DNA of 64,000 nt from an uncultured Gammaproteobacteria bacterium (GCA_964409875.1 CAYPEN010000001.1:134637-198636), one strand, 5' to 3'; positions 1-58,562 are shown, counted from the stretch's first letter. A program made the numbers and translations. Notes: generated by a model not told the origin, from the sequence alone.

Positions 1-657
1 GGAAGAAGGTAGAGTTTGAAGACTAAGCGCACTTTTAGTAAAGGTAATCGCTGCATTTGAATTACGGGTAAGAAATCCGGTATTTGGACCGAACACAATC
101 ATAGTAGGTTTGGTATTAAGCCGTACAAAGGAAAGCGTTGCAACTTTTCCTTTCCCTTTTTGCATTGGGATAGTGTCCGGGATATGGAGGGAAAGAGATA
201 CGAGTGAGCCCTTTTTATCATTATAGACTTCTCCCTTCTCAAAGGATGATGAGAGTGCAGATGTCGGGTCTTTAACTTGCGTCAGCCTAACATTTCCAAC
301 AGCCTTCGGATCGTAGAGCAGGGAGATAACGCCACTACTTACCTCCCGTCCTTGGGTGTCGATAATAATGTCAACTGATTGCGTTTGACCAACTCCTGCA
401 CCGATATTGGTACCTGGTAAAAACCCGATAGTTGCCTGTGGTAGACTGATGGTTGATGAAGTTGATGTATTGGTGTTTGGGGTCGACCTCATAAAGTAAA
501 CATATGGCGAGCCATATGCAAGAATCACGAGTATGAAAGCAATCGCACCAATAATAATGAGTGCTTTCTTGTTCTTTTTTAGAAAGGAAGCCTTATTCTC
601 AGACTTTACTGGTTGGTCTATAGCGTTCTCTTGTATTGGCACTTCTTTGTTTTCCAT
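1..657 (-). CDS. N-terminally membrane-anchored protein, 5' part only (the gene runs past the window start); last gene of the minus-strand surface locus
   Basis: The reverse-strand ATG at 657-655 opens a frame that reads without stops to position 1 (219 codons). Translation begins MENKEVPIQENAIDQPVKSENKASFLKKNKKALIIIGAIAFILVILAYG, a single TM helix, then a Ser/Thr-rich segment. It is absent from the ORF track because there is no stop inside the window. The frame was read by eye only. Confidence 0.4.
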   Translation of the reverse strand, partial: MENKEVPIQENAIDQPVKSENKASFLKKNKKALIIIGAIAFILVILAYGSPYVYFMRSTPNTNTSTSSTISLPQATIGFLPGTNIGAGVGQTQSVDIIIDTQGREVSSGVISLLYDPKAVGNVRLTQVKDPTSALSSSFEKGEVYNDKKGSLVSLSLHIPDTIPMQKGKGKVATLSFVRLNTKPTMIVFGPNTGFLTRNSNAAITFTKSALSLQTLPSS

Positions 658-669
658 ATCGTTACAATT

Positions 670-2370
670 TTATTTCTTACAGCAGTATGGTTTTGCTCCG
701 CTGGTAAATTCATTACATACTTGATTGCCTCTTTGGTATACAGAGTAGCCGGGTGTGCTATCACAAGAACTGTTGGTTGCGCAGATATGATTGCCATCAT
801 TCGGACACTCAACCTGATAGTTAAGTGTTGGGGTAGGAGTTCCTTGGCCTACAGGTGTTCCTCCATTGACGCACCATGCAGGTTGTTGACAGGTGTTGAC
901 TGAGGCGGGAATTATATCGGTTTGAGGGGTTCCATCAGCATTCTTATTGTTGCAAAGGTATTTGTCTGCATAAGTCTTGGTGCAGAAGTATCCGCTGTAC
1001 GCTTTTGTAGCATCAAACGCTTCGTTGCCACACAATGGCCCCCAATATGAAGCGACTCCGCCTTTAGTAGTGGCACATGGTCCTGTTGCCGGTCCTGTAT
1101 AGGAGCCTGAACCGCTTCCACCCGCACCGGGAGTTGTGGTCGTTGATGTTCCACCACCGGGGTTAGGTGTTCCGCTTGTGCAGTAAAAGAAGTATTGGGT
1201 TTGAGGATTTCGTGCATTACAGTACGGATTTGGCGTCTGTCCGTCCCATATTGCATTTGCAACATAGCAACCGGCGGGGGGAGTTCCGACTGCAGTTGGA
1301 TTTTCTCCATGTGGGCCGGCACAATAGCCAGGATTGGATGGGGGAGTCGGTGTCGGGCCTGCAACAACAGGTGAGCATGTGTAGCAGCTATTAGCAGCTG
1401 ACGCATTATTGTTCTTCCACATACACCATGCGTCTCCGGGCTGACTCCGTCCCCAATTGTTACCTGCGCATGTTGCTGTCGGATAACTAGCCTGAGAGCC
1501 ACAGACTTGCGATGCACCGTTACACTTCACAGAAGGCTCCGATGTGCCACCACCGCCACCGCTCGGAGTCTGTCCTCCACCTCCGGGAGTTTGCCCACCA
1601 CCACCTGGGGTTTGTCCTCCACCTCCGGGAGTCTGGCCACCACCCGGAGTCTGTCCTCCGCCAGTTCCTGACGCGCTTTTGTAGTAGCAGGATGTTCCGC
1701 TGGTACGACATTGATGGCTTGAGTCTGCTTTTGTCCATCCCGGTTCAGCGCCTCCGTCAACCCAGCATTTATATTCTGTTGTGCTTTCTGACGAAAAAGG
1801 CTTGCATGTATCAGCCTCTCCCTGATCTTCCGAAGAACAATACGAATTTCTTTGGCAGGTTTGAATTTTTCCATCTCGACCAGTTTTATAGCAATGGCCC
1901 ACACCACTTGATGGACACTGAGCTCCCATGTTGCCGTTATTTGATACACAACGAGGCGAATCATGTAACCCCCCTGCGTAAAAGAAGCACCTGCCGTCGC
2001 CGTTTTCGCATGCATCCTTTGACCTAGAGCTGCAATTTTCCGTGCATTGGTGATTTTCGCAAACTCCGCTGTTGCAATCTTCATCTTCTCCACATTTACC
2101 GCCAATATCATTCTTGCTTGCTTTGCAAGAGCCTTCTATGCAGTATGGCTCGTTTGCATTGCATGTTGGTTTCCAGCTAAAACAGGCTTGGCCCCATCCG
2201 GCATAGTCACATCCACAACTATCAAATGGATTGGGAAAGGCATATTGCTGTTTAACATTGTTAAATAGGAATATTAAACAAATAAATAAGAAGGAAAGCC
2301 CTAAAGAGAAGAAAAATGTACCAGAAAAAAATCTTCTATTGTCAAAAAGAATACTAAAATAACGCCTCAT
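670..2370 (-). CDS. Secreted cysteine-rich protein (about 60 Cys) with tandem GGGQTP/GGGGQTP repeats
   Basis: 566 aa with an N-terminal signal/TM segment (MRRYFSILFDNRRFFSGTFFFSLGLSFLFICLIFLF). Cys is very abundant throughout. The repeat GGGQTPGGGQTPGGGGQTPGGGGQTP is encoded by an 18-nt DNA repeat at about 1530-1670. The competing frames 912..1517 and 1527..2111 look spurious. Confidence 0.6.
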   Translation of the reverse strand: MRRYFSILFDNRRFFSGTFFFSLGLSFLFICLIFLFNNVKQQYAFPNPFDSCGCDYAGWGQACFSWKPTCNANEPYCIEGSCKASKNDIGGKCGEDEDCNSGVCENHQCTENCSSRSKDACENGDGRCFFYAGGLHDSPRCVSNNGNMGAQCPSSGVGHCYKTGRDGKIQTCQRNSYCSSEDQGEADTCKPFSSESTTEYKCWVDGGAEPGWTKADSSHQCRTSGTSCYYKSASGTGGGQTPGGGQTPGGGGQTPGGGGQTPGGGGQTPSGGGGGTSEPSVKCNGASQVCGSQASYPTATCAGNNWGRSQPGDAWCMWKNNNASAANSCYTCSPVVAGPTPTPPSNPGYCAGPHGENPTAVGTPPAGCYVANAIWDGQTPNPYCNARNPQTQYFFYCTSGTPNPGGGTSTTTTPGAGGSGSGSYTGPATGPCATTKGGVASYWGPLCGNEAFDATKAYSGYFCTKTYADKYLCNNKNADGTPQTDIIPASVNTCQQPAWCVNGGTPVGQGTPTPTLNYQVECPNDGNHICATNSSCDSTPGYSVYQRGNQVCNEFTSGAKPYCCKK

Positions 2371-2420
2371 ATGAATTTTGATGGTTCAACTTCAATTATT
2401 AATGTCTTATTTGTTAATTG

Positions 2421-3002
2421 TCAACACCCAGTTGCGGCTCCCTGATAATATACTTTCAAAGTGCCTCCTGACCATTTACCGCCTGTTTGGGATCCTCCGG
2501 AGAATAACCCGATTTTCCATTTTTTATTAGTAAATCCATCAGCTGATGAAAGATTAATTGTGTATCTAGTTGAGGGTGTTTTGAATTGATCTGTTGCAAT
2601 AACTTTTGTAGTAGAACCTTCTTCTATTTCTATTGTCATATAGCCATTTTCGTCTCCTATTGCCTGTATTTTTCCTTCCTGTTGCGGTACTGTTTCTTTC
2701 AGGCAAAATGTAGGCGTATAGTTTATAATCCAAGTAAAGGGAGTAGTGGTCGGAGAAGGAGTCGTGCCGGAACCGGATGAGGTAGGGCCAGGAGTTGTGG
2801 AAGTAGTTGCTGGTGTGTCGGCTACAGGGAAGGGGGTGTCACCCGACATAAGTGTCCCAAAGCCTCCAACAAGAGACACTGCGAGAAGTACAACCATTAT
2901 GCAAATTATAAAATACACTGAGGATTGTCCGCGCTCTGAAGCAACAGAAGTTGGGAGTTGGGAGTTAGCAGATAAAGGGTTTTGAATAAAAATTCTTCGC
3001 AT
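2421..3002 (-). CDS. Membrane-anchored protein with a Thr/Pro/Ser-rich linker and a C-terminal globular domain
   Basis: 193 aa. It has a TM helix (VYFIICIMVVLLAVSLVGGFG), then TPATTSTTPGPTSSGSGTTPSPTTTP, then a beta-rich C-terminus ending in Cys. Confidence 0.5.
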   Translation of the reverse strand: MRRIFIQNPLSANSQLPTSVASERGQSSVYFIICIMVVLLAVSLVGGFGTLMSGDTPFPVADTPATTSTTPGPTSSGSGTTPSPTTTPFTWIINYTPTFCLKETVPQQEGKIQAIGDENGYMTIEIEEGSTTKVIATDQFKTPSTRYTINLSSADGFTNKKWKIGLFSGGSQTGGKWSGGTLKVYYQGAATGC

Positions 3003-3041
3003 AATTTGAGTATAGAATTTTTTGCTGCAAGTGGCTAGTGG

Positions 3042-3407
3042 TTAGTTTTTTGATGTTTCGAGGGCTGTTATTCTTTTCTCATGGTCAGATAACTTTTTTC
3101 TGGTAAAACTATCAGTGCCTTCAATAGCGTCAAGGAGAGAATTTTGCATATCTTCAAGGTCTTTTTTTGTAGCAAACCGCTTCAGTTCTTCCTTTGTCGC
3201 AAATCGTTCAAGATCTTCTTTTGTAGCATAAGCCTTTAGTTCCTCCCTCAAGTCTTCTTTTGTAGCAAATCTTTCTAAATCCTCCTTGGTGGCAAATCTT
3301 TTCAGTTCATTTTTTAAGTCCTCTTTTGTGGCAAAGACCTCCCGTAGCTCTCTTATGGTTTGAATGAAAACTTTTTCTGTTAGGACTTTTTCTTCCTGTT
3401 TTTTCAT
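3042..3407 (-). CDS. Coiled-coil repeat protein with seven tandem (F/Y)ATKEDL(K/E)R units
   Basis: 121 aa, with FATKEDLKNELKRFATKEDLERFATKEDLREELKAYATKEDLERFATKEELKRFATKKDLED. It is highly charged and helical, with no TM segment. Confidence 0.55.
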   Translation of the reverse strand: MKKQEEKVLTEKVFIQTIRELREVFATKEDLKNELKRFATKEDLERFATKEDLREELKAYATKEDLERFATKEELKRFATKKDLEDMQNSLLDAIEGTDSFTRKKLSDHEKRITALETSKN

Positions 3408-3472
3408 AGTGATATCTAGAATATCATTTTGTAATTAATCTTCAATAAGACAAAGTACAGCAATTGGTGAAA

Positions 3473-4393
3473 TTATTGCCCCGCGTCGTTGCAGATTTTT
3501 TGGGAAATGTCTTTATAAATTTTTTTTAACTGGGTCGGGTCGGGGAGTTCATAATATGTTGAAAGGGTAGGTTCGGTTGCTATTTTTGACATCATATTCC
3601 TCATGTCGGGCAAAAAATATTCGTCTTCTGTGTTGCCCGGAACGTAGAGTGCAATCGTATATATCTTTATCCCTTTGTCTTTTATTTCTTTCGAAACGTC
3701 GGGGGATTGGGTCGGGTCTTGTGAATTTGCAAAACACCGGTTTCCCAATTGCCTACCACTTGCGCAGTCATGAGGGTTTGTTTCCGGAATACCGTCCGAA
3801 AGAAAAATAAGTGCAAATTTTTGGTCGGGGAATTTAGTTTGTGCAGCAAGGATTTTATCCCGCATAAATAGAAATGCAGTTCTTGTGTTTGTCGCACCTG
3901 CTGCACGAAGGTTTTGAATTGCTCCGGGCATTGTGCTTTTGACATCTTTGTAGCGGGAGAAGGGCACATCTTCTTCAACAACAACTGCCCCGTCGTCGTT
4001 ACTGCTAAAAGATGAAAGGCCGATGACCGACTGGTCGGAAAGAGTTTGGGAAAATGTTGTAAGTGCAGATTTGAGGTTCTCTATTTTTGCGCCTTTCATC
4101 GAGCCGGAGCGGTCAACCAAAAGTCCGACTGCAACTTTACTGCCGCATTCGCGGAATTTGATGGTTTTTAGTTGCAGGTTGTTGCGGTTGGGACCTGGAG
4201 TTTCTTGTACTAGCTCCAAGTCCCCTGTTTCACCCGGATCTGAGAGTGTCGAGCGGGGAGTGACTCCCCGGGATAGTAATACCCCCATACCTACTGCAAG
4301 ACCGATAAATGCAAGGGTAAATAGTGTCCCCGGCCCTGTAAGATTGACTCCAAAGCCGTTTCCACCTCGTCTCCTATTATTATTGTTTGCCAT
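3473..4393 (-). CDS. von Willebrand factor A (vWA) domain protein with an N-terminal membrane anchor
   Basis: 306 aa. It has a TM helix (TLFTLAFIGLAVGMGVLL), a MIDAS motif DRSGSM (DxSxS) in LLVDRSGSMKG, and a typical vWA alpha/beta layout. The N-terminal 70 aa are paralogous to the next gene. Confidence 0.7.
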   Translation of the reverse strand: MANNNNRRRGGNGFGVNLTGPGTLFTLAFIGLAVGMGVLLSRGVTPRSTLSDPGETGDLELVQETPGPNRNNLQLKTIKFRECGSKVAVGLLVDRSGSMKGAKIENLKSALTTFSQTLSDQSVIGLSSFSSNDDGAVVVEEDVPFSRYKDVKSTMPGAIQNLRAAGATNTRTAFLFMRDKILAAQTKFPDQKFALIFLSDGIPETNPHDCASGRQLGNRCFANSQDPTQSPDVSKEIKDKGIKIYTIALYVPGNTEDEYFLPDMRNMMSKIATEPTLSTYYELPDPTQLKKIYKDISQKICNDAGQ

Positions 4394-4395
4394 AT

Positions 4396-5259
4396 TTATA
4401 GTTGTATTGTTGTACAGCCTTCACTGATATCTCCCACCTGGTCTCCATCGTGAAGGATGAATTGCGCACGGTACGCATGCCCAGCCTCAAGACCGAGATT
4501 GTCAACCTTCCATATGATTTCAGCGCCAAAGAACGGTTCCTGACGTCTTTGAGAATTTGCAAATTTCACGTTTGAATTTGGAGGGTATGGGTCTGCCCCC
4601 GGCCCCAAATCCAAGTCATTGGGTGTTGACATTGATGTTGATGCCCCCAAGGGTTTCCACGCACCGAATACCTCATCGGGTTTGTGTGGGGTTCCCCCGT
4701 TTTGCGCGTCTCCTGACTTATTATTGGGGTCAGATGTTATGTCGCTTAAGAAAAGAGCAGGGTACCAAGGAAATCCATTGGCATCTTTTTGGGTCTCATC
4801 TCCCACATTGGGACTTACCACGTGATCTTTTGAGGATGTTGAAGGGGAAATATTCCCGGCTCCGAGCGTTATCGGCCATTCGTCTTGATAAAAAACCTTG
4901 ATAGCCCCGCCTTTGACAACAGGGGTCCCCGGGTCGGGGTTGATGGCCCACAGAATGTATGGCTCGGGGCTACCTTTAATAGCGTCATCCCCGCAGTCAA
5001 ATGTAGGGGGAATGACAACCTTCATTTTAATAGTTCTGAGTTGAAGGTTGGACCGTTGGGCCTCTTGTTGGCTTGTATCAACTTGATAGGTATATTTATC
5101 ATTTAACCCTGAGAGCGTTGATTTGGGAGTGACACCGCGAGTCATGAGTATTCCCATCCCGAAAGCAATTCCTATGAATGCTAGGGTAAAAACTGTTCCC
5201 GGACCTGTAAGGTTGAGACCAAAACCCATTCCCCCACCTTGCTTTTTCTCTTTTGCCAT
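4396..5259 (-). CDS. Membrane-anchored protein of unknown function that shares its N-terminal anchor module with the adjacent vWA gene
   Basis: 287 aa. The N-terminus MAKEKKQGGGMGFGLNLTGPGTVFTLAFIGIAFGMGILMTRGVTPKSTLS...RSNLQLRTIKM aligns with GFGVNLTGPGTLFTLAFIGLAVGMGVLLSRGVTPRSTLS...RNNLQLKTIKF of 3473..4393. The C-terminal domain is unrelated. Confidence 0.6.
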   Translation of the reverse strand: MAKEKKQGGGMGFGLNLTGPGTVFTLAFIGIAFGMGILMTRGVTPKSTLSGLNDKYTYQVDTSQQEAQRSNLQLRTIKMKVVIPPTFDCGDDAIKGSPEPYILWAINPDPGTPVVKGGAIKVFYQDEWPITLGAGNISPSTSSKDHVVSPNVGDETQKDANGFPWYPALFLSDITSDPNNKSGDAQNGGTPHKPDEVFGAWKPLGASTSMSTPNDLDLGPGADPYPPNSNVKFANSQRRQEPFFGAEIIWKVDNLGLEAGHAYRAQFILHDGDQVGDISEGCTTIQL

Positions 5260-5435
5260 ACAATTAAGTGTAGAATTTAGTTTTCATACTTGTCAACGTA
5301 TCTTGTTTTTGAATTCAACTTTTGTTATACTACTGTTCATTACATCATGTTCTTGATTACATCCTGGCTGAAAACGCCGCAAGAACAGAGGGAAAAAGGA
5401 TTATAAAACGCTTGCGTTTGATTCCTTATTAATAT

Positions 5436-9296: not shown

Positions 9297-11177
9297 TTAA
9301 GAAGTTGCGAGTGGAGGAGTGTTGGTTCCGCTTCCTGTTGGTGTTTCGGCTGTATCAGTTGTGGCACCTACTCCGGAAAGTGTTGGTTCGGGAGCAGCCG
9401 AAGTTTCTGTTGGCGTTGCTCCAAGAGTTGATGCGCCTGCAGATTCTGCAACCGCCGCAGCCTGTTCAAGTACATTTCCAGATGGCGTTGCTGAGCCTTC
9501 CGCAGTCGATGTCATTGCAGAAGACGGATTTTCGATAGCAGGAGCCACGGCGCCGTCGGTTGGAAGCGCTCCATCGGAAACCTCAACTGATGCAGCTACT
9601 TGACCTGCTTGTCCCAAAACGTCCATATTTGAGACTTCAGAACTACCGGTAGCAGCTACCGAGCTCATTGCTGGGTCTACTGCCGGTTCGGGAGCAGTTG
9701 GTGTAGGAGCAGCTTCCGGTTCCACGGGGGCGCCGACTATTGAAGGAGCATCTTCTGCTACTGGTGGCATTCCTGTTCCAAATGGAGGTGGGGTTTCAGT
9801 TGAGGCGCCCGGTAGTGGGGTAGGACTTGTTTCCAAATTGAGAGCATTGGGTTCAGATGAAGCAAGGGGGGAAGTTGCTACAGGTGGTGCTTCAGGGGCA
9901 GAGGGCGCAACTCCAACAACGGGCGCATCAGGATGTGCCGCTGAAGCGTCAATTGACCAGCTTGCAGGTGTAGAGGGTGCAGCGGCTTCACCGGCCGGTG
10001 CCATATCGGTTGACGGTTGATATTCGGGAACTGAAGGCGTTGCTGCAGGCTCTGCTACTGCGGATGGGCCAGATGTGGTCGGTTCTGCCGCAGGGGAGGC
10101 TGGCCATTGAGAAGTTGCCTCGGATGCAGGAGGAGCGGAGGGTGTACCGTCTTGGGTTGCCGCTGGTGTTGTGTCTACTGCGCTTGAAGTGGTTGCGGCT
10201 TCGGTTGGAGTTCCATAACTTGGGAAAGGTTCTGATGATGAGCCGGCTGTGTTTGTAGCTGCTTCAGACGATTGCTGTTCGGAAGGTGTTTCCATTGCCG
10301 TAGTTGCGGTTTTGTCTATTTCATCCAATGCGGCATTGGTGCCTGCTGCATTTGAGACTATAGACTCGGCTTCTGAAACTGCCGCAGTGGCAGCCATGTG
10401 GGATGCTTCGGCAGCTGGAGCGGGTGAGTTATCAACAGGAGCTGCATCTGGAATGGAAGAAATGGGCTCAGTTGTTGCCGTTTCTGCAGGTGAACTGACA
10501 GATTCTAGAGCAGGGGCTGCAGGTGTTTCACTACCTATTGGGGATAGACTATCAGAGGAGGTAACTACAGGTGTTTCTGGGTTGGGAGGCGTTTGCGTCT
10601 CATTTGATGCAGTAGCAGCACTTGAAGTTATTTCTGATGAAGTATCCTGAGGCGGCTTAACACCAGCAGTCCACGTCGTTTCAATTGTGCCTTGAGCTGT
10701 TGTCGCTAAATTTTCGGGCATATTGTTTTGGGGCTGAGGTTGGGCATTTTCCATCTTTGCGCTTCCACGAAGTCCGATAATACCAAGTAGCCTATTTCCA
10801 AGTCCCGGCTTTGGAGGCGTGGCTTGTGCTGCAGCCTTTTCGGCGACCATAGAATTATGGGTGGCGTTTAAGTTAGCCATTTCTGGAGTGCCCAATGGTT
10901 TTAAAGGGTCTAGAGGTTTAATTTCAGGTGCAGGTTGTGTTTGAGCTGCGGCATCTGGGCCAGCAGGCATCGTTGAAGCAGCAGGTTGCTCGGTCCCTGC
11001 CAATGCTTTTGCAGCCACATCTTCAGCTTGCGAGATGACACCAGCCGCTTCGGGAGCTGATGCGCCCGGAGTTGGAAGTAAACCGTTACCTGTTTCTGTT
11101 GCAGCGGGAACTGCTGCTTGTGGTGCTTCAAGCGTGGTAACACCACCGCCCTGATTTTCGCCGTTGTTTGGTCCCAT
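9297..11177 (-). CDS. Large low-complexity Ala/Pro/Thr/Ser/Glu-rich protein, predicted intrinsically disordered
   Basis: 626-aa ORF with no stop for 1.9 kb, co-oriented and 46 bp downstream of 11224..12015. There is no recognisable domain, signal peptide or TM helix. The bias toward GC-rich codons leaves open frames on both strands, so the coding status is uncertain. Confidence 0.4.
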   Translation of the reverse strand: MGPNNGENQGGGVTTLEAPQAAVPAATETGNGLLPTPGASAPEAAGVISQAEDVAAKALAGTEQPAASTMPAGPDAAAQTQPAPEIKPLDPLKPLGTPEMANLNATHNSMVAEKAAAQATPPKPGLGNRLLGIIGLRGSAKMENAQPQPQNNMPENLATTAQGTIETTWTAGVKPPQDTSSEITSSAATASNETQTPPNPETPVVTSSDSLSPIGSETPAAPALESVSSPAETATTEPISSIPDAAPVDNSPAPAAEASHMAATAAVSEAESIVSNAAGTNAALDEIDKTATTAMETPSEQQSSEAATNTAGSSSEPFPSYGTPTEAATTSSAVDTTPAATQDGTPSAPPASEATSQWPASPAAEPTTSGPSAVAEPAATPSVPEYQPSTDMAPAGEAAAPSTPASWSIDASAAHPDAPVVGVAPSAPEAPPVATSPLASSEPNALNLETSPTPLPGASTETPPPFGTGMPPVAEDAPSIVGAPVEPEAAPTPTAPEPAVDPAMSSVAATGSSEVSNMDVLGQAGQVAASVEVSDGALPTDGAVAPAIENPSSAMTSTAEGSATPSGNVLEQAAAVAESAGASTLGATPTETSAAPEPTLSGVGATTDTAETPTGSGTNTPPLATS

Positions 11178-11223: not shown

Positions 11224-12015
11224 CTATTTCTGTCCTTTTTGCCAAGGGGCGCGTTTCAGAATAGGAGCATACACGTCGTCATTCATGTCGATTCGAAGCT
11301 CCTTGATTTCATTCTCGGTAGTATCACGGTTGGTAAACTCAATGTTTGAAAGTTCTGAAATTATTGCCAGTGGGGTTTGCTCCTGGCCCTCTCCCATAGC
11401 GGTAACAGCTCCTGCTGCCAGTCCGTCTGCAACATTTGCTTTTGTGACGCGCATTATCCTGTCGAATAAATCAGGTTTTCCCATGTAATCGTTGAGCGCA
11501 TTAAAACCCGAATGAGCTATGCTAACCCCTGTTGTTCCCCAGCGAAGAGGAGTGGTTTTGCTGTCGGTTATGATAACGCCTATATTTTGCACGCCGAATT
11601 TTTCAACAAGATGTTGCCTTATTTCATTTGCCGTCTCATAAGGGTTTTTGGGCCACAGAATATAGTAGCCATTCCCATTCGACTCGTCGATTCCTGCCGT
11701 TGGAATGAGTAAGTTTTGCGTGATGGTCAAGTAAAACCCATATTGATTTTCATTCTTATCCAAAAACATTTCACTTTCTTCTTTGACCAATTTTTCTTTA
11801 TCCTCAATTTCAGTCGTGTGATTTATCTTTTTTATCCTTCCTTCAGCTATCGAAACAATTTTTGAAGTGACAACAAGAATGGAGTTTTCCTCCATCTTAT
11901 TTATATAGGTGTCTAAAATATTAAAAAGGTTAGTGTCCTTTTCCGTTATCTTGTGGGTCTTTAGTGGTGTAATTGTCATAGAGGCAATTGTACTATAATT
12001 TAGCCTCATTGACAA
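11224..12015 (-). CDS. F420-0:gamma-glutamyl ligase (CofE)-like fold protein
   Basis: 263 aa. The motifs LLIPTAGIDESNG and GVIITDSKTTPLRWGTTGVSIAHSGF resemble the CofE/F420_ligase family. This rests on recalled similarity and was not aligned. Confidence 0.5.
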   Translation of the reverse strand: MSMRLNYSTIASMTITPLKTHKITEKDTNLFNILDTYINKMEENSILVVTSKIVSIAEGRIKKINHTTEIEDKEKLVKEESEMFLDKNENQYGFYLTITQNLLIPTAGIDESNGNGYYILWPKNPYETANEIRQHLVEKFGVQNIGVIITDSKTTPLRWGTTGVSIAHSGFNALNDYMGKPDLFDRIMRVTKANVADGLAAGAVTAMGEGQEQTPLAIISELSNIEFTNRDTTENEIKELRIDMNDDVYAPILKRAPWQKGQK

Positions 12016-13519: not shown

Positions 13520-14692
13520 TTACCTCTGGAATTTTGGGGTTAGTACATTCTCCGTATCAAGCAGTCCGTATTTTGAGAGAAGACGGGACAAAATAGGGGA
13601 GCGTGTAGCATACAAAAGTTTTTTTGGGAATTTCTCAGTCATGAGATTTTCAATTTCATGAAATCCCAGAAGATATGCTGCGTCTTTTGGAAAACCACCG
13701 GGATGAGAAGTGTCTGAAAGACCGCGCTTGACTCGGTACGTCATCACAAACGCACGTTGCGGAGTAAGCGTTTCACAAAGTGTATCAAATATTTCGCGGA
13801 AACTTTTATGCAAGAGTCGTACCGCTTTAATTCTCGAGTAGTACATTTCAAATGCGCTTGGTGTAATTTTTCTTGTAGTTACTTCATTATAGACAGCAAG
13901 ACCTTCTCCATACAGATTTTGGTTACCATATTTTGAAAACTCTACGAGTGGAGTATTCGAACTTTTAGAATTTTGGGCTTGCAGAACATGGCTTTCGATT
14001 TCATGCACTACAAGCCTATCAACATTGCACTCAAAACGCCGAATTTCACTTCCGATATTGATGGTGTGTTGCCCGACATTTATGATGTGTGGCGAGAAAG
14101 TATCAATCTTTACTTCAAATCCTGAAATGTTGTAACGGGAAAGTGCTTTCTCAAAGCGTTCTTTAATTTTTTCAGCATCCTGCATTTTGTGTTTGATATG
14201 CATAGTAAATTCAACTTTAGGAGTGTTGGAAAGAAGTAGGTCGAGCCTATCACTTCCCCAGTCAAAGAGCTTATGTGCGTATTCTGAAAAATCTTGGCTT
14301 CCGATAGATTTTTTTGTCAGAAAAAGTGTGTTCTGGTCATCAAGAAAGTCTAAGAAGTGTTCCTTTAATTCGTCAGGTATTTCTAGCGCATCAATTTGTT
14401 TTTTAAACTCATTAATAGTCCTTGTGATGTTGGGAAGGTCCTTCTTGTTGTAGGTATACATCGGGTTATAGTTTTTGGAGGAAAAAAATTTTGCCATCTC
14501 CTCTCCATAATTAAGAGGAGTAAGGGAAGCGGTTCCTATGTGGAGAGTCCTTTTAAGTCTAATTATTTGTTCTGCTACTTCTTCCAGCTGTTTTTTAATA
14601 TGAGCCGGAATGTGACTTTCTTCTTTTGCCATCGGGGTTATTATGGTACCACGAAGATGCCTTCTTGTCGAATTACCGCAAAAATTTTGCAT
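13520..14692 (-). CDS. DUF1704-like (QEGLA-motif family) putative metallopeptidase-like protein
   Basis: 390 aa. It has an HEXXH-like motif (VVHEIESHV) and a downstream YGEGLAVYNE that resembles the QEGLA motif of DUF1704. Recall-based. Confidence 0.4.
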   Translation of the reverse strand: MQNFCGNSTRRHLRGTIITPMAKEESHIPAHIKKQLEEVAEQIIRLKRTLHIGTASLTPLNYGEEMAKFFSSKNYNPMYTYNKKDLPNITRTINEFKKQIDALEIPDELKEHFLDFLDDQNTLFLTKKSIGSQDFSEYAHKLFDWGSDRLDLLLSNTPKVEFTMHIKHKMQDAEKIKERFEKALSRYNISGFEVKIDTFSPHIINVGQHTINIGSEIRRFECNVDRLVVHEIESHVLQAQNSKSSNTPLVEFSKYGNQNLYGEGLAVYNEVTTRKITPSAFEMYYSRIKAVRLLHKSFREIFDTLCETLTPQRAFVMTYRVKRGLSDTSHPGGFPKDAAYLLGFHEIENLMTEKFPKKLLYATRSPILSRLLSKYGLLDTENVLTPKFQR

Positions 14693-14981: not shown

Positions 14982-16538
14982 ATGATTCTCAATAAATACT
15001 CGGAAAGCCTCATTCATCTTTTTGAAAAGGCAAAAGAAAAGCCAATTGAAACTGCTAACGCTGTCAATCCGCTTGTCTCAGAGCTTGCATCCTGGTACGA
15101 GAAATTCCGGAATTCCATTGAATACAGAGACGAAGAAGTAATCCTGCGGGCATCAATTGAGAGGATATTGAAAAGAAGATTGGCCCTTGGGGGAACAGGA
15201 GCAACTGCTGCAAAGCCCTTATTGAAAGAACTGGTGTGGGCGCGCTATTTTCCAGAGTCGTTATATACCGAAGAGACGATAAAAAAAATAGAGCAGATAA
15301 TAGATTTTTACCTGAAGCTTAAAAGTGAGTCGGTAAAAAGGGGAATGAAAGACGGACATATGCGGGAGTTGATGTTCCAACTCATGTCCTCCGATGTTGA
15401 GCAGACCTTACATCCGAATAAAGTAGAGGAAGCAGTCGGAAATTATATCTTCCACGTCCTGCAAAAAAGCATTGCTGTTGAAGAGGAGATGGAGGAGGAG
15501 AGGGATCTGCAGCTTTTTATAGCAATTCGGCGTGCGTACTCAAAAGACGATATTGCTTTTTTGCGATTCAAATTATTCACGCAATATTTTGGCAAAATGA
15601 ATAATCAGGAAGTTGAAGTTGTTGCCGAAAGATTTAGGGATGCATACCAAAAAATTGAGAAGCAGCTAACGCATTCTGCCCGGTTTAAAATACTCTCTTA
15701 CGTCAAAAGGCAAATCCCGGCCTTTCTTATCATGGAAGATGTTTTTGCGACACAGGACAATATGAACGAGTTGGTGCAAAACGAGGAGGAGTTAGATGCC
15801 GTTATTCTTGCCGCCTGCAAGAAAAAATATAATACCATTTCGGAGAAGGTGCGGCGTGCAATCATACGAAGTGTCATCTTTATTCTCCTTTCAAAGACAG
15901 TTATCGCATTCGGTGTTGAAGGGACGTATGAGCGAATATTTTTGGGGCACGTGCAGTGGCTAACTCTGGCTCTGAATGTTATTATCCCTACGCTTTTTAT
16001 GATCGTAGTAGGATTTTCTATCCGTACTCCCGGAGACAAAAATTCACGCCTCATCTTGTCACGAATTCATGCGTTGCTTTTTGACGAAGAGCCAAAAATC
16101 GGACGGGTAATTGATTTTCCTGTGCCTGATAAAAAACCTCGAAGCACTATGGATTGGGTATTCTGGGTTTTGTGGGTTACCGCATTTTTGTTAAGTTTTG
16201 GTGCCGTGTCGCTGGGACTTTCGCTTTTGCATTTCAGTATGGTGTCTCAAGGGATATTTATTTTCTTTTTGGCAATTGTCAGTTTCCTTGCGTACCGCAT
16301 CAATATCACCGCGCATGAATATAGTGTTGAGAATAGGCAAGGTCTTTTGACACCAATAATCGATTTTTTCTTTATGCCGATAGCCCGGGTCGGGCAATAT
16401 CTGACTGCAGGCATTTCTCAAATAAATATTTTCTTGTTCATTCTGGATTTTATTATCGAGGCGCCCTACAAAGGGATTGTCGGATTTTTCGACCAGTGGT
16501 TTTTCTTCCTGCACTCGAAAAGGGAAGAGATAGGTTAA
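14982..16538 (+). CDS. Membrane protein of unknown function: soluble N-terminal half, multi-TM C-terminal half
   Basis: 518 aa. The N-terminal 300 aa are hydrophilic and helical, and the C-terminus has at least 4 TM helices. Confidence 0.5.
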   Translation: MILNKYSESLIHLFEKAKEKPIETANAVNPLVSELASWYEKFRNSIEYRDEEVILRASIERILKRRLALGGTGATAAKPLLKELVWARYFPESLYTEETIKKIEQIIDFYLKLKSESVKRGMKDGHMRELMFQLMSSDVEQTLHPNKVEEAVGNYIFHVLQKSIAVEEEMEEERDLQLFIAIRRAYSKDDIAFLRFKLFTQYFGKMNNQEVEVVAERFRDAYQKIEKQLTHSARFKILSYVKRQIPAFLIMEDVFATQDNMNELVQNEEELDAVILAACKKKYNTISEKVRRAIIRSVIFILLSKTVIAFGVEGTYERIFLGHVQWLTLALNVIIPTLFMIVVGFSIRTPGDKNSRLILSRIHALLFDEEPKIGRVIDFPVPDKKPRSTMDWVFWVLWVTAFLLSFGAVSLGLSLLHFSMVSQGIFIFFLAIVSFLAYRINITAHEYSVENRQGLLTPIIDFFFMPIARVGQYLTAGISQINIFLFILDFIIEAPYKGIVGFFDQWFFFLHSKREEIG

Positions 16539-22290: not shown

Positions 22291-23835
22291 ATGAATTGTA
22301 AGAAAATTTTAGTTTCGACTTTTGCTGCGGGTCTTGTTTTTGCTGCAACTGCGCTGCCTACATTTGCAGATACTACAGTGGTTGTCACCTCACCGGCCTT
22401 GGCAGTTAATGTCGCCGACGTAATAGCACACCCAACAAAGTGGTTTTTCTATAATGATGAAACAGATACTATCGACAACACATTGGGATCGTTTGTTTCA
22501 GGACCTTCTACTGCTCCATTCGGTGCGGGAAGTGCCCAGATTTCAGTAGCCGGAACGCAACGGAGAAATTTGGCAACATATCAGTTTTCTGGTACAAAAC
22601 TTTCAGATATAATGGTTTTAAAGTTTAGTACATACAATCCGTCTGCCGGAAATGGTGGAGGAGCGAACAGATCAGGATATTTAAACTTCAACGTGGATTT
22701 TAATGGTTCGGATACCTGGCAAAGAAGGCTCGTGTATGTTCCGTCGCAAAATGGTTCAGTTGTACAAGATTCTTGGAAGGAGTGGGATGCTATAAATGGT
22801 GGTAATGCAATGTGGACATGGTCTGGGTTTGCAGGCAACGGAAACAAATGGCCTGATAATAATACCAACGAATATCGAACATGGAGCGATATAGTATCTG
22901 CATTTCCAAACATTCGAGTTCGGGTAACTGATTCTTGGTTAGGTATTAGAGTTGGAGAACCATATGCCGATGGTTATACCGAGAATATTGATGGATTTAA
23001 ATTCGGAACAGCTGCTGGTACCACAACATACGATTTCGATCCTTATGTTGCGCCTTCTGTTCCGACTATTACTGTACCTGCCAATGGAGCTCATGTAACT
23101 TCAGCGGCACTTGTAAAAGTTGATTGGTCGAATTCGACAGGAACGAATCCGCCTTTTGAGTATCAGTACGAGGCCTATGGGGATAGTGGATATTCAAGCC
23201 TCATTTATTCCAGCGGGTGGCTCTCAAGTTCTGAAATTCCGACTCCCGGAACACCGGTTGGCGATTATTGGATAAGAGTTAGAGCAAAAGATGCTACGGG
23301 AACGATGAGCACTTGGAGTAATGACACTGGTAATCCTTATCACTTCACAGTTGACCCGCTCATTGGCCCGCCGACCTTGGTAAGTCAATGCAAAAATAAC
23401 GGATGGCAGACATTCAACAATCCATCGTTTAAAGACCAGGGAACATGCGTGTCCTACGTGAGAGCACATTCTCATAGCGTCCTTGGTAATGTCAAGTACA
23501 CGGTGTATGGCCTCGCACGAACTGCGCAATTTGCAGCTGACACTGCAGATGGCGGAGGAGCATTCCAATACTCCGATGCAAATCATGCTTGGTACAGAGT
23601 GCTTATCACCTCACTAAAGGTTGACGGACATAATGCCTGGTTTGCCGGACGAGTCTGGCAGGCAAGCAACCCTTCATGGGTTGGACAATGGCTATTTGCC
23701 AAAGTAAATGACAGTAGCCCAAAGCGGATTTGGGGAAGTTTTACGACCCAATCAGCTGCTGAAAACGGTGTCGCTACAATGGCAACGCCGGCAGACGGAC
23801 CATTCAACACAATTGGTGCACTCGTCGTGCATTGA
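22291..23835 (+). CDS. Secreted / cell-surface protein of unknown function
   Basis: 514 aa. It has a Sec signal peptide (MNCKKILVSTFAAGLVFAATALPTFADTT), a strong RBS (aaaggaggtg) and a Trp/Gly/Asn-rich beta-type composition. Confidence 0.6.
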   Translation: MNCKKILVSTFAAGLVFAATALPTFADTTVVVTSPALAVNVADVIAHPTKWFFYNDETDTIDNTLGSFVSGPSTAPFGAGSAQISVAGTQRRNLATYQFSGTKLSDIMVLKFSTYNPSAGNGGGANRSGYLNFNVDFNGSDTWQRRLVYVPSQNGSVVQDSWKEWDAINGGNAMWTWSGFAGNGNKWPDNNTNEYRTWSDIVSAFPNIRVRVTDSWLGIRVGEPYADGYTENIDGFKFGTAAGTTTYDFDPYVAPSVPTITVPANGAHVTSAALVKVDWSNSTGTNPPFEYQYEAYGDSGYSSLIYSSGWLSSSEIPTPGTPVGDYWIRVRAKDATGTMSTWSNDTGNPYHFTVDPLIGPPTLVSQCKNNGWQTFNNPSFKDQGTCVSYVRAHSHSVLGNVKYTVYGLARTAQFAADTADGGGAFQYSDANHAWYRVLITSLKVDGHNAWFAGRVWQASNPSWVGQWLFAKVNDSSPKRIWGSFTTQSAAENGVATMATPADGPFNTIGALVVH

Positions 23836-58385: not shown

Positions 58386-58427
58386 ATTTAATGCCTTGCA
58401 ATAGTCATATTTCTTTGTTTTAATAAA

Positions 58428-58562
58428 TACTGCATCAAGAGAGTTTCAAGAAATTGAAACCGGCAACCGTAAATTTTTCGGTGCCAAAGCGAGAGCAGAT
58501 GCGTCCTGAGCAAGTCGAAGGAAAAAATGTCTATAAGACCTCTCGCTTTCGGGAGGTTTTTT
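58428..58562 (+). ncRNA. Putative SAM riboswitch (SAM-I-clan-like core, minimal P2 and no P4) with an intrinsic terminator, in the metK leader
   Basis: The P1 5' arm is GCATC, followed by J1/2 AAGAGAG (58437-58443). A short P2 hairpin is GTTTCAAgaaatTGAAAC. P3 is GGCAACC...GGTGCCAA (58462-58488), matching the SAM-I P3/J3-4 core. The P1 3' arm is GATGC (58499-58503). A terminator, CCTCTCGctttCGGGAGG+TTTTTT (58538-58562), ends 1 nt before the metK ATG. AGCGAGAG (58489-58496) is complementary to CTCTCGCT in the terminator 5' arm, so it can act as an antiterminator. Recall-based with no covariance model. Confidence 0.45.

What the first reader, a model, noticed from the sequence alone, without database searches (positions are those of the whole stretch)
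1..5259. Minus-strand surface-protein operon with a shared N-terminal anchor module on two unrelated genes
Six co-oriented genes sit close together (gaps 2-60 bp). They are an N-anchored unknown protein, a vWA/MIDAS protein, a FATKEDL coiled-coil repeat protein, a Thr/Pro-linker anchored protein, a 566-aa protein with about 60 Cys, and a further TM-anchored protein. The first two share about 70 aa at the N-terminus. The conserved stretch is GFG(V/L)NLTGPGT(L/V)FTLAFIG...GMG(V/I)L..RGVTP(R/K)STLS, followed by NLQL(K/R)TIK just after the TM helix, and their C-terminal domains are unrelated. This suggests a modular anchoring, sorting or stalk element reused by different adhesin heads, possibly a cell-surface attachment apparatus of an episymbiont. 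It is not a classical prepilin (there is no G|FTLxE motif) or a sortase signal.
Basis: partly seen in the sequence, partly recalled or inferred. Interest (0 to 1): 0.6.

Follow-up and report, generated by a model that had tools for sequence, protein, structure and literature searches.

The report
Shared export leader on surface proteins
Two neighbouring surface-protein genes of an uncultured Levybacteria (CPR) bacterium carry the same unusually well conserved N-terminal leader or membrane anchor in front of unrelated outer domains; the leader is real and lineage-specific, but what it does is still unknown.

Summary
g1 (4396-5259, minus) and g2 (3473-4393, minus) share about 80 N-terminal residues (BLASTP E 3e-21; z = 36 against shuffles), and their C-terminal domains are unrelated.

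g2 is a vWA domain with a complete MIDAS. g1 is a beta-sandwich with no Pfam or PDB relative.

The shared region has two parts:
- **"A-anchor" (aa 1-51):** basic tail, (S/N)LTGPGT, a Gly-rich, weakly hydrophobic helix, then RGVTPxSTLS. An exhaustive search of 1.84 billion proteins found it only on these two families, all in Levybacteria. It stays 79-89% identical where the vWA domain has fallen to 31-38%.
- **Linear motif LQLKT(I/L)KF plus Cys:** present throughout both families and, in degenerate form, in a third.

In the g1 family the anchor changes abruptly while the domain diverges smoothly, which indicates cassette swapping. A second anchor type is shared by two other unrelated domains. 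The gene next to rpsB carried the A-anchor in every locus examined.

g3-g6 form a hypervariable island. The leader is not a prepilin, TadE, YSIRK or sortase signal by profile tests.

The most likely reading is a specialised Sec leader or signal-anchor for adhesin-like ectodomains. Whether it is cleaved, what it binds, and any "apparatus" remain untested.

The parts
5110..5259 (-). g1 A-anchor/leader (aa 1-50): basic tail, GFGLNLTGPGT, Gly-rich helix TVFTLAFIGIAFGMGILM, TRGVTPKSTLS
   Evidence: The AF2 helix spans residues 20-41. In the aligned anchor stretch, 33 of 42 residues are identical to g2, but only 15 of those use the same codon.
5017..5049 (-). g1 juxta-domain motif NLQLRTIKMKV. It is followed by the invariant Cys89.
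   Evidence: Q73 is invariant and L72 and L74 are at least 90% conserved across 33 g1-family proteins. AF2 pLDDT here is about 60-64, and the motif is not packed on the domain.
4399..5004 (-). g1 ectodomain (aa 86-287): beta-sandwich of unknown family with conserved His/Asp residues (H146, HDGD 270-273) and Cys89/Cys282
   Evidence: AF2 pLDDT is above 90. There is no Pfam hit in any of the 33 family members, no PDB sequence relative and no significant Foldseek PDB match.
4241..4393 (-). g2 A-anchor/leader (aa 1-51): MANNNNRRRGGNGFGVNLTGPGTLFTLAFIGLAVGMGVLLSRGVTPRSTLS
   Evidence: It is 79-89% identical in relatives whose vWA domain is only 31-38% identical. Its Hessa hydrophobicity sum is -0.49, against -2.4 to -3.4 for the g4-g6 anchors.
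4145..4180 (-). g2 juxta-domain motif NLQLKTIKFREC
   Evidence: L73, Q74, L75, F80 and C83 are invariant in 19 vWA relatives. The motif is kept in deep relatives that have different anchors. AF2 pLDDT is below 50.
3476..4144 (-). g2 vWA ectodomain with a complete MIDAS (D94-x-S96-x-S98, T168, D200) and Cys83/Cys301
   Evidence: Pfam VWA E 4e-16. AF2 pLDDT is above 90. Foldseek matches integrin I domains, Mfa5 and PilB at E 1e-9 to 1e-11. Residues were checked.
3042..3407 (-). g3: 121-aa coiled-coil protein with FATKEDL-type repeats and no hydrophobic segment. It is present in some related loci and absent in others.
2421..3002 (-). g4: TM-anchored protein (ERGQSSVYF...), Thr/Pro-rich linker, small beta domain ending in ...TGC
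   Evidence: Counterparts follow the vWA gene in L001, L002, L003, L005 and L010.
670..2370 (-). g5: 566-aa secreted or anchored Cys-rich protein (45 Cys) with GGQTP repeats
   Evidence: It shares only short patches with the L001 and L002 counterparts.
1..657 (-). g6 (3' end lies outside the window): TM-anchored protein, cohesin-like by relation to its L001 counterpart
   Evidence: The Pfam Cohesin hit (E 9e-6) is on the matching L001 gene at the same place in the cluster (L001:14507-15226); a further TM-anchored protein in L007 (L007:16980-17639) also hits Cohesin (E 7.6e-8), though it showed no direct match to g6.
5267..5296 (-). Promoter-like site TTGACA-18-TACACT, just upstream of the g1 start in the divergent rpsB-g1 intergenic region
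   Evidence: consensus match only
3399..3486 (.). Boundary between the conserved block (rpsB side, g1, g2) and the hypervariable island (g3-g6)
   Evidence: blastn homology to L001 ends at 3399 and to L010 at 3486. g1 and g2 are about 90% identical to L001 at the protein level, against 27-44% for g3-g6.

Best explanation
g1 and g2 are Sec-exported, N-terminally tethered surface proteins of a Levybacteria (Patescibacteria/CPR) cell.

**Proposed architecture.** The basic tail stays in the cytoplasm. The Gly-rich helix sits in the membrane as a signal-anchor. A flexible tether of about 30 aa and the conserved LQLKTxKF-Cys stretch lead into an ectodomain whose two ends are probably joined by a disulfide. 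In g2 the ectodomain is a vWA domain with a full MIDAS, that is, a metal-dependent ligand-binding (adhesin-type) head. In g1 it is a new beta-sandwich with conserved His/Asp residues.

**What the A-anchor does.** The A-anchor is not a generic anchor. It is a lineage-specific leader under strong purifying selection. Its small-xxx-small pattern ((G/A)xAxGxG) and weak hydrophobicity suggest that it packs against another membrane helix. That helix could be a second copy, the neighbouring gene's anchor, or an export or sorting factor. In this way the anchor would specify where or with what the protein is displayed.

**How it came to be shared.** The leader belongs to the gene slot next to rpsB. Ectodomain cassettes have been exchanged behind it by recombination, with junctions in the tether/LQLKT region. 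This is how an originally vWA-specific leader came to sit on g1.

**Shown versus inferred.**
- Shown: homology, restricted distribution, differential conservation, swap pattern, folds and MIDAS residues.
- Inferred: topology, disulfide, helix packing, adhesin role and the recombination mechanism.
For: - **Homology beyond composition:**
- **Restricted distribution:** a profile of the module against 1.84 billion representatives gave 10 hits, of which 8 are real. All 8 are vWA or g1-type. Seven GTDB loci were found; two are titled Levyibacteriota, the other five carry a generic 'uncultured Gammaproteobacteria' title. All seven lie beside rpsB, and six of them also show tsf and rseP. Two of the more distant vWA relatives carry source names that say Candidatus Levybacteria.
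- **Differential conservation:** the anchor is 79-89% identical where the vWA domain is 31-38%. As controls in the same genome pairs, the g6 anchor is 32-39% against a domain of 23-40%, and the g4 anchor is 47-56% against 37-39%.
- **Selection acts on the protein, not the DNA:** in the 42-residue anchor stretch, 33 residues are identical, only 15 of them share a codon, and nucleotide identity is 72%.
- **Swap:** within the g1 family, anchor identity drops from 63-89% to 8-25% between members whose domains are 78% and 69% identical. A member with a 34% domain keeps a 55% anchor.
- **Second anchor type:** it is shared by basal g1 relatives and an unrelated family (E 1e-22 to 1e-24; the domains are unrelated).
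- **Slot rule:** A-anchored genes lie next to rpsB in the window and in L001-L007 and L010-L013, whichever head they carry. Generic-anchored g1 genes lie at the far end of the cluster.
- **Structure:** AF2 gives a single helix, a low-confidence tether and confident domains.
- **vWA neighbours are adhesive domains:**
- **Hydrophobicity:**
Against: - No experiment or predictor here tells whether the hydrophobic segment is retained or cleaved. It is only about 17-19 residues long, is marginally hydrophobic, and ends in S-R-G, which fits the -3/-1 rule for signal peptidase I.
- No partner for the anchor or for the LQLKT motif has been identified.
- The extra conservation of the anchor could partly reflect fast, diversifying evolution of the exposed head rather than a special anchor function. 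The g4 anchor shows a milder version of the same trend.
- The within-genome excess of g1/g2 anchor similarity is weak (n = 4).
- The adhesin role of the vWA domain rests on analogy only.
Confidence: 0.5

Rival explanations
1. The module is a specialised but cleavable Sec signal peptide, analogous in logic to the YSIRK/GXXS signal peptides of Gram-positive cocci. A conserved motif at the n/h-region boundary ((S/N)LTGPGT) would direct a small set of surface proteins to a particular secretion site. The peptide would be removed after S-R-G. The released protein would then be held on the cell by its conserved N-terminal stretch (VTPxSTLS ... LQLKTxKF).
For: - The h-region is only about 17-19 residues with 3-4 Gly. 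Its Hessa sum is near zero (-0.15 and -0.49), whereas the clear anchors of g4-g6 score -2.4 to -3.4.
- A small residue sits at -3 and Gly at -1 (S-R-G, T-S-G, V-G-G) at the end of the helix in all anchor types.
- The conserved LQLKT motif lies in a segment that AF2 does not pack onto the domain. This is what one expects of a docking motif.
- Precedent: the YSIRK/GXXS motif is shared by unrelated surface proteins and controls septal secretion (PMC5962339, PMC11370438).
Against: - No YSIRK profile hit.
- Signal peptides rarely stay 80-90% identical while the mature domain falls below 40%. Conservation also continues well past the putative cleavage site.
- No signal-peptide predictor could be run.
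Confidence: 0.3
2. The proteins are non-canonical type IV pilin-like (modular minor pilin or pseudopilin) subunits. A prepilin peptidase would cut after the Gly-rich leader (…GG(N/M)G|FG…), and the helix would insert the vWA or beta-sandwich head into a type IV filament, as in Streptococcus sanguinis PilB and PilC.
For: - The layout is a basic leader ending in Gly followed by Phe and then a hydrophobic helix.
- Many related anchors in the cluster have [KR]-G just before the helix, for example KGFSAL..., RGQSSVY... and KGEIGIE....
- vWA and lectin-like heads on pilin modules are known (PMC8179133). PilB is among the structural neighbours of the vWA model.
Against: - No N_methyl, TIGR02532, TadE or class III profile hit in any of 19 module-bearing vWA proteins, none in the Pfam scan of the 33 g1-family proteins, and none for the window's own g1 and g2.
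- A polar, helix-breaking NLTGPGT lies between the putative cleavage site and the helix, and there is no Glu at +5.
- The predicted helix is only about 20 residues and is followed by a disordered tether of about 35 aa, not the 50-residue alpha1 packed on a beta-sheet.
- There are no pilus-machinery genes in the part of the window whose ORFs were scanned against Pfam or in the loci whose gene calls carry Pfam tags.
- g1-family genes sit alone among housekeeping genes.
Confidence: 0.1
3. The shared N-terminus has no function of its own. It is a by-product of recombination or gene conversion between adjacent genes in a recombination-prone surface-antigen island, and its conservation reflects only that history.
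For: - The cluster is clearly recombinogenic: gene content is variable, there is a sharp divergence boundary, and there are two different anchor-sharing cases.
- L010 shows g1 and g2 anchors more alike within the genome than between genomes (33/38 against 26-27/38).
Against: - The g1 and g2 anchors in the window differ at most synonymous sites (15 of 33 identical residues share a codon), so the event is old and the sequence has been held by selection on the protein.
- The anchor is far more conserved than the domain across the whole vWA family, which has nothing to do with g1.
- Control anchors in the same loci are not conserved in this way.
Confidence: 0.1

Closest known systems
YSIRK/GXXS signal peptides of Gram-positive surface proteins (PMC5962339, PMC11370438)
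   Same: Both are conserved sequence motifs inside the N-terminal export signal. Both are shared by otherwise unrelated surface proteins of one lineage, and both are more conserved than an ordinary signal peptide. The YSIRK motif acts as an address (septal secretion) rather than only as a Sec ticket.
   Different: There is no sequence similarity and no profile hit. Here there is no C-terminal LPXTG. Conservation extends through the helix and about 10 residues beyond it. Cleavage and any localisation effect are unknown.
Modular type IV pilins such as Streptococcus sanguinis PilB (pilin module + vWA) and PilC (pilin module + lectin) (PMC8179133, PMC9934059)
   Same: Both place one N-terminal hydrophobic module in front of different adhesive heads, one of which is a vWA domain with a MIDAS. 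The vWA model matches PilB structurally (7b7p, E 2e-9).
   Different: Here there is no class III signal peptide signature, no Glu5, no long alpha1 helix packed on a beta-sheet, and a disordered tether instead of a pilin fold. No pilus genes lie nearby.
N-terminally anchored bacterial vWA proteins (BatA/BatB type) and vWA tip adhesins (Mfa5, RrgA, integrin I domains)
   Same: All share the vWA fold with MIDAS residues and an extracellular location. BatA-type proteins also have an N-terminal TM helix. Weak NCBIfam hits to BatA and CglB occur in some members.
   Different: All hits fall far below the family cut-offs (for example CglB at 18.9 bits against a cut-off of 200). There are no MoxR/DUF58 partners, no sortase signal and no lipobox. 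The conserved leader and the LQLKT-Cys motif are absent from those families, since PDB profile hits start at about position 80.
Conserved-5'-end / variable-3'-cassette surface-protein loci (e.g. Mycoplasma vsa/vlp, Neisseria pilE/pilS). This comparison rests on my own knowledge and was not tested here.
   Same: In both, a fixed expression-and-export 5' module sits next to a conserved flank and different ectodomain-coding cassettes are placed behind it. A hypervariable set of surface-protein genes lies alongside.
   Different: The exchanges here are seen only between genomes, on an evolutionary time scale. No silent cassettes, inverted repeats or recombinase were found, and only two or three swap events are documented.

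Membership tests
Type IV pilin / class III signal peptide proteins | N-terminal prepilin cleavage/methylation motif (G|F/M-x-x-x-E) detectable by the PF07963 or TIGR02532 profiles | tested here: not met
   No such hit at E <= 1 for g1 or g2. No hit at E <= 0.1 in any of 19 module-bearing vWA proteins in Pfam or NCBIfam, and none in the Pfam scan of the 33 g1-family proteins. Position +5 after the GFG is Leu, and a polar NLTGPGT precedes the helix.
Type IV pilin / class III signal peptide proteins | A long (about 50 aa) N-terminal alpha-helix whose C-terminal half packs on a beta-sheet (the pilin fold) | tested here: not met
   AF2 predicts helices at residues 20-41 (g1) and 23-41 (g2). They are followed by 35-45 residues with pLDDT below 65 that are not packed on the domain.
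Type IV pilin / class III signal peptide proteins | A prepilin peptidase and assembly ATPase/platform encoded in the genome, usually nearby | tested here: inconclusive
   None was found among the roughly 30 window ORFs scanned against Pfam (several ORFs, mostly between 57 and 64 kb, were not scanned) or in the loci with precomputed Pfam tags. For L001-L007 only ten cluster ORFs were scanned. The rest of the genome is not available.
vWA (von Willebrand factor type A) domain, MIDAS-containing | Match to the vWA profile above the curated cut-off, and a Rossmann-like alpha/beta fold | tested here: met
   PF00092 scores 60 bits against a cut-off of 23.8. All 19 relatives match. The AF2 model has pLDDT above 90, and Foldseek matches integrin I domains at TMt 0.77-0.82, E about 1e-9 to 1e-11.
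vWA (von Willebrand factor type A) domain, MIDAS-containing | MIDAS residues D-x-S-x-S, Thr and Asp | tested here: met
   D94, S96, S98, T168 and D200 are present in g2. They are invariant or at least 90% conserved in the family. Metal binding itself was not tested.
YSIRK/GXXS signal peptide proteins | The YSIRK-G/S motif in the signal peptide (PF04650 / TIGR01168) | tested here: not met
   No hit, and the motif is absent from the sequence.
Sortase substrates (LPXTG and relatives) | A C-terminal sorting motif followed by a hydrophobic segment and a basic tail | tested here: not met
   g1 ends in ...EGCTTIQL and g2 in ...KICNDAGQ, with no C-terminal hydrophobic segment. The only related NCBIfam hit lies in the vWA region (TIGR03788, 14 bits against a cut-off of 552).
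TadE/TadG-like Flp pseudopilins with vWA | An N-terminal TadE (PF07811) or Tad (PF13400) domain | tested here: not met
   No hit at E <= 1 on g1, g2 or g4, and none in the 19 vWA relatives.
BatA/BatB aerotolerance-type vWA proteins | Match to the BatA models at the curated score, and an operon with a MoxR ATPase and a DUF58 protein | tested here: not met
   Only 4 of 19 relatives give weak BatA hits (best E 1e-3). There is no MoxR or DUF58 gene in the cluster.
Cohesin-domain proteins (g6) | Match to PF00963 above the gathering score | tested here: inconclusive
   The partial g6 in the window gives no hit. The matching L001 gene at the same place in the cluster scores 26.4 bits against a cut-off of 24.1. 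A separate TM-anchored protein in L007, which showed no direct match to g6, scores 33.1 bits.

The most novel reading that the evidence does not exclude
The A-anchor together with the LQLKTxKF-Cys motif may form a previously undescribed N-terminal sorting signal of Levybacteria. It would be a mirror image of the C-terminal motif-TM-basic-tail signals (LPXTG, PEP-CTERM and the like). A dedicated membrane partner would recognise it and assemble, process or position a small set of adhesin heads. The rpsB-proximal slot would act as a fixed expression-and-export site behind which ectodomain cassettes are exchanged.
Probability: 0.15. Interest if true: 0.7.

Novelty: new variant of a known kind. Interest (0 to 1): 0.4.

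Why it matters
CPR/Patescibacteria are thought to depend on contact with other cells, yet outside type IV pili very little is known about how they display surface proteins.

This locus gives concrete, testable handles in one CPR order:
- a leader conserved far more strongly than the domains it carries;
- a short linear motif shared by at least three unrelated ectodomain families;
- a MIDAS-bearing vWA head;
- an unannotated beta-sandwich family.

It also shows that ectodomains are swapped behind fixed leaders, next to a hypervariable surface-protein island. That pattern is typical of loci under pressure from hosts, phages or competitors.

If the leader proves to be a true sorting signal, it would define a way to predict the displayed proteins of these organisms. 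If it is only an anchor, the finding is an ordinary, lineage-specific surface-protein cluster.

Tried and rejected
- **Generic TM similarity:** rejected by composition-adjusted BLAST, shuffles and comparison with the other anchors in the window.
- **Recent gene conversion between g1 and g2:** rejected for the window. Nucleotide identity is 72%, and only 15 of the 33 identical residues share a codon. A weak within-genome excess remains in L010.
- **Prepilin, TadE, YSIRK, LPXTG and lipobox signals:** no profile hits and no Cys in the leader.
- **Further copies of the module in the window:** none.
- **Further families carrying the module in public data:** none beyond vWA and g1-type. P0008 and P0009 are repeat artefacts.
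- **Pilus or secretion machinery near the genes:** none among the window ORFs scanned against Pfam or in the loci with Pfam-tagged gene calls.
- **Context for P0001:** not on record.
- **Literature on Levybacteria surface proteins or CPR vWA proteins:** nothing relevant.
- **Reading VNLTG as a sortase-like pentapeptide:** rejected. It lies on the cytoplasmic side of the helix and lacks Pro.
- **An obligate g1-g2 complex:** weakened, because g1-family genes occur alone and A-anchored g1 occurs with no vWA gene beside it on the stretches recovered.

Full report
**What is in the sequence**

The first 5.3 kb of the window carries six co-oriented minus-strand ORFs:
- g1, 4396-5259, 287 aa
- g2, 3473-4393, 306 aa
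- g3, 3042-3407, 121 aa
- g4, 2421-3002, 193 aa
- g5, 670-2370, 566 aa
- g6, 1-657, truncated by the window edge

The gaps between them are 2, 65, 39, 50 and 12 bp. They diverge from rpsB-tsf-rseP-frr-recR on the plus strand. A sigma-70-like site (TTGACA-18-TACACT, 5296-5267) lies just upstream of g1, and no terminator-like site lies between the genes on the minus strand. Co-transcription is therefore plausible but not demonstrated.

rpsB, tsf and rseP are 89-97% identical to those of metagenome-assembled genomes. One of these is labelled Candidatus Levyibacteriota, and more distant vWA relatives are named Candidatus Levybacteria. The window therefore comes from a member of this CPR/Patescibacteria lineage.

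The N-termini of g1 and g2 align at 49% identity over 84 residues, E 3e-21 with composition-based statistics. The local alignment score is 212, against 27 +/- 5 for 5000 shuffles of the same residues. The 20-residue helix alone scores 78, against a shuffle maximum of 47 and against 13-19 for the anchors of g4, g5 and g6. Beyond residue 85 the two proteins are unrelated.

Minor corrections: g5 has 45 Cys rather than about 60, and the largest gap is 65 bp.

**The two heads**

*g2* is a vWA domain:
- Pfam PF00092 scores 60 bits against a cut-off of 23.8.
- The MIDAS is complete: D94, S96, S98, T168 and D200.
- The AlphaFold2 model has pLDDT above 90.
- Its nearest solved structures are adhesive vWA domains: integrin I domains, the Mfa5 pilus tip protein, ANTXR2 and S. 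sanguinis PilB.

*g1* is a confidently predicted beta-sandwich (pLDDT above 90 for residues 100-287):
- Conserved residues include H146, HDGD at 270-273, and several Asp and Gly.
- None of 33 family members hits any Pfam family.
- A profile search of PDB sequences finds nothing.
- Foldseek against the PDB gives only non-significant matches.

In both proteins an invariant Cys follows the shared motif (C83 in g2, C89 in g1), and a second conserved Cys lies near the C-terminus (C301, C282). I infer a disulfide joining the two ends of each ectodomain, but this is untested.

**The "module" is two elements with different histories**

*Element 1, the A-anchor.* This covers residues 1-51 of g2 and 1-50 of g1. 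It consists of a basic tail, a Gly-rich stretch, (S/N)LTGPGT, the helix (T)xFTLAFI(G/A)xAxGMGxL(L/M), and then (S/T)RGVTP(K/R)STLS.

*Element 2, the linear motif.* This is LQL(K/R)T(I/L)K(F/M) followed within 3-10 residues by Cys.

AlphaFold2 predicts a single helix (20-41 in g1, 23-41 in g2). It then gives a low-confidence tether that includes element 2 (pLDDT below 50 in g2, about 60 in g1). Element 2 is not packed against the domain.

Element 2 is conserved throughout both families:
- L73, Q74, L75, F80 and C83 are invariant in 19 vWA relatives.
- Q73 is invariant in 33 g1 relatives.
- It is kept in deep vWA relatives that have quite different anchors (P0081-P0085, with variants in P0086-87).
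- It recurs in degenerate form (NIQLKNVSF, GLQMTKVNF, GLHMVDIDF) in a third, unrelated family of cluster proteins that end in ...GFTAVEWGG.

Across all six-frame ORFs of the window and loci L001-L007, the strict pattern occurred only in the N-terminal parts of these cluster proteins.

**Distribution of the A-anchor**

A word-indexed search of 5.8 billion proteins with the module found one fragment. An exhaustive HMMER search of 1.84 billion cluster representatives found ten proteins. Eight of these are genuine: seven are vWA proteins and one is a g1-type protein. The other two are repeat artefacts.

Later searches with g1 and with the vWA domain added about 30 more A-anchored vWA proteins and five A-anchored g1 proteins. 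A scan of one genome per GTDB species found seven loci. Two are titled Levyibacteriota and five carry a generic title. All seven lie beside rpsB, and six also show tsf and rseP.

The A-anchor is therefore a narrow, lineage-specific element carried by just two domain families.

**The anchor is conserved far more than the domain it carries**

Relative to the window's g2, relatives whose vWA domain is only 31-38% identical keep an anchor that is 79-89% identical.

Controls from the same cluster and the same genome pairs behave differently:
- The g6 anchor is 32-39% identical, against 23-40% for its domain.
- The g4 anchor is 47-56% identical, against 37-39% for its domain.

The constraint acts on the protein. 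In the 42-residue anchor stretch of g1 and g2, 33 residues are identical, only 15 of them use the same codon, and nucleotide identity is 72%.

The helix is Gly-rich with overlapping small-xxx-small spacing ((G/A)31-x3-G35 and A33-x3-G37). It is only marginally hydrophobic, with a Hessa-scale sum of -0.15 for g1 and -0.49 for g2, against -2.4 to -3.4 for g4-g6.

**Evidence for cassette swapping**

Within the g1 family the ectodomain diverges smoothly (94, 88, 84, 82, 78, 69, 69, 67 ... % identity to the window). The anchor, by contrast, drops from 63-89% to 8-25% between the members at 78% and 69%. The most divergent member (P0007, 34% in the domain) again has a 55% identical A-anchor.

Gene position follows the anchor type:
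- A-anchored g1 genes lie directly beside rpsB. In the window, L001, L010 and L013 a vWA gene follows. In L012 and L014 no vWA gene follows on the stretch recovered, although L014 is too short to show rpsB. In L011 the next gene is a short TM ORF on a low-coverage contig.
- g1 genes with other anchors lie at the far, glyA-proximal end of the cluster (L002, P0018), or stand alone among housekeeping genes in more distant genomes.

A second anchor type is also shared. The sequence KGNILxPLLFVIIAFGxLLTSGAMVNKSATNP... occurs on basal g1 relatives and on a ...GFTAVEWGG-family protein (L001:16379-17365). The shared N-termini match at E 1e-22 to 1e-24 and 46-48% identity over 70-85 residues, while the C-terminal domains are unrelated.

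Ectodomains have therefore been exchanged behind fixed leaders more than once, with junctions in the tether/LQLKT region. The direction of each event is not resolved. The A-anchor most likely arose within the vWA family, because deep vWA branches lack it.

Within-genome g1/g2 anchors are slightly more alike than between-genome pairs, most clearly in L010 (33/38 against 26-27/38). With four genomes this is only a hint of concerted evolution or co-evolution.

**The surroundings**

In L001, L002 and L005 the cluster fills the interval between rpsB and glyA; in L007 only the vWA gene and one short ORF lie there. Its content varies: vWA, with or without g1, with or without the FATKEDL coiled-coil protein, then a g4-type protein, a large Cys-rich protein, a cohesin-domain protein and one to three ...GFTAVEWGG proteins.

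Against the close relative L001, g1 and g2 are about 90% identical at the protein level, whereas g3-g6 are 27-44% identical. Nucleotide homology stops at 3399, the g2/g3 junction, and against L010 it stops at 3486. A conserved g1-g2 pair therefore abuts a hypervariable surface-protein island.

No type IV pilus, sortase or other dedicated secretion genes were seen among the window ORFs scanned against Pfam or in the loci whose gene calls carry Pfam tags.

**Interpretation**

The best-supported reading (confidence about 0.5) is that g1 and g2 are Sec-exported, N-terminally tethered surface proteins. Their leader is a specialised, selected element rather than a generic anchor. The weak hydrophobicity and small-residue face suggest that the helix packs against another helix, either a partner anchor or an export or sorting factor. 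The LQLKTxKF-Cys stretch would then be a docking or stalk motif just below a disulfide-clamped head. The vWA head, with its complete MIDAS, most likely binds a ligand through a metal ion, as adhesive vWA domains do (PMC8179133 for a bacterial example).

The main rival (0.3) is that the hydrophobic segment is a cleaved, specialised signal peptide. By analogy with YSIRK/GXXS (PMC5962339, PMC11370438), a conserved motif in the signal peptide of unrelated surface proteins would act as an address. The short Gly-rich h-region and the S-R-G ending fit this reading.

A non-canonical pilin-like signal (0.1) fails the tested defining features: profile match, Glu5 and the long alpha1 helix packed on a sheet.

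Pure recombinational hitch-hiking with no function (0.1) is contradicted by the synonymous divergence and by the family-wide conservation.

- Right: a reused N-terminal module on different heads, and the exclusion of classical prepilin and sortase signals.
- Not supported: a six-gene "attachment apparatus". g1 occurs without a neighbouring vWA gene and also alone, g3 is optional, and g3-g6 turn over rapidly.
- Still open: whether the element anchors, sorts or merely exports.

**Novelty and score**

The components belong to known kinds: a signal-anchor or signal peptide, a vWA adhesin head, and a variable surface-protein island. The leader, the LQLKT-Cys motif and the g1 domain are undescribed, and the degree of leader conservation is unusual. 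I rate this a new variant of a known kind, with interest 0.4.

The most novel reading not excluded is a dedicated N-terminal sorting signal with a fixed expression-and-export slot. I give it a probability of about 0.15 and an interest of about 0.7 if true.

Noticed in passing
window 51387-56840 (+): An 1817-aa alpha-2-macroglobulin-like protein (MG2, A2M bait region, A2M) carries a Hint/PT-HINT domain inserted at about aa 940-1069. This may be an intein, or a Hint-mediated processing site, inside a bacterial A2M.
   Followed up: no
window 58427-58537 (+): A SAM-I/IV riboswitch (47 bits against a gathering score of 41) lies directly upstream of the S-adenosylmethionine synthetase gene at 58564-59679.
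   Followed up: no
window 29655-32150 (+): A pyruvate phosphate dikinase / PEP-synthase-like gene lies in a stretch of about 60% GC, in a window that averages about 42%. This suggests horizontal acquisition.
   Followed up: no
window 3399-3486; L001, L010: There is a sharp divergence boundary at the g2/g3 junction. DNA homology to close relatives stops there. g3-g6 are 27-44% identical where g1, g2 and the housekeeping genes are 89-97% identical. This marks a hypervariable surface-protein island.
   Followed up: partly
L001:16379-17365, L001:15269-16291, L002:14926-17020, L005:13961-15043, L012:5690-6736: An unannotated family of TM-anchored proteins ends in ...PKR(V/T)GFTAVEWGGVI, with no Pfam hit. 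Its members carry at least two different N-terminal anchor types. One of these types is shared with basal g1-family proteins.
   Followed up: partly
L010:8395-10189; L013:2144-3209: The g1 and g2 anchors of the same genome share derived substitutions (for example FIAIAIG and RGITPK in L010). Identity is 33/38 within the genome against 26-27/38 between genomes. This is a hint of concerted evolution or co-evolution.
   Followed up: partly
window 3042-3407 (-); L005:9621-9989; L012:1555-1926; L014:1274-1567: A small coiled-coil protein has tandem (F/Y)ATK(E/D)DL repeats and no export signal. It recurs between the A-anchored gene(s) and g4 in some loci and is absent in others (L002, L003). Its role is unknown.
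   Followed up: no
window 9297-11177 (-), 14982-16538 (+), 22291-23835 (+), 47435-48799 (-): Four large ORFs of 454-626 aa have no Pfam match. The first lies in a region of strong negative AT skew.
   Followed up: no
window 13520-14692 (-) and 11224-12015 (-): These encode a MATCAP-like (PF08014) carboxypeptidase homologue and a CofE-type F420-0:gamma-glutamyl ligase homologue. Both were noted only as possibly out of the ordinary for a small CPR genome; this is my impression and was not checked.
   Followed up: no
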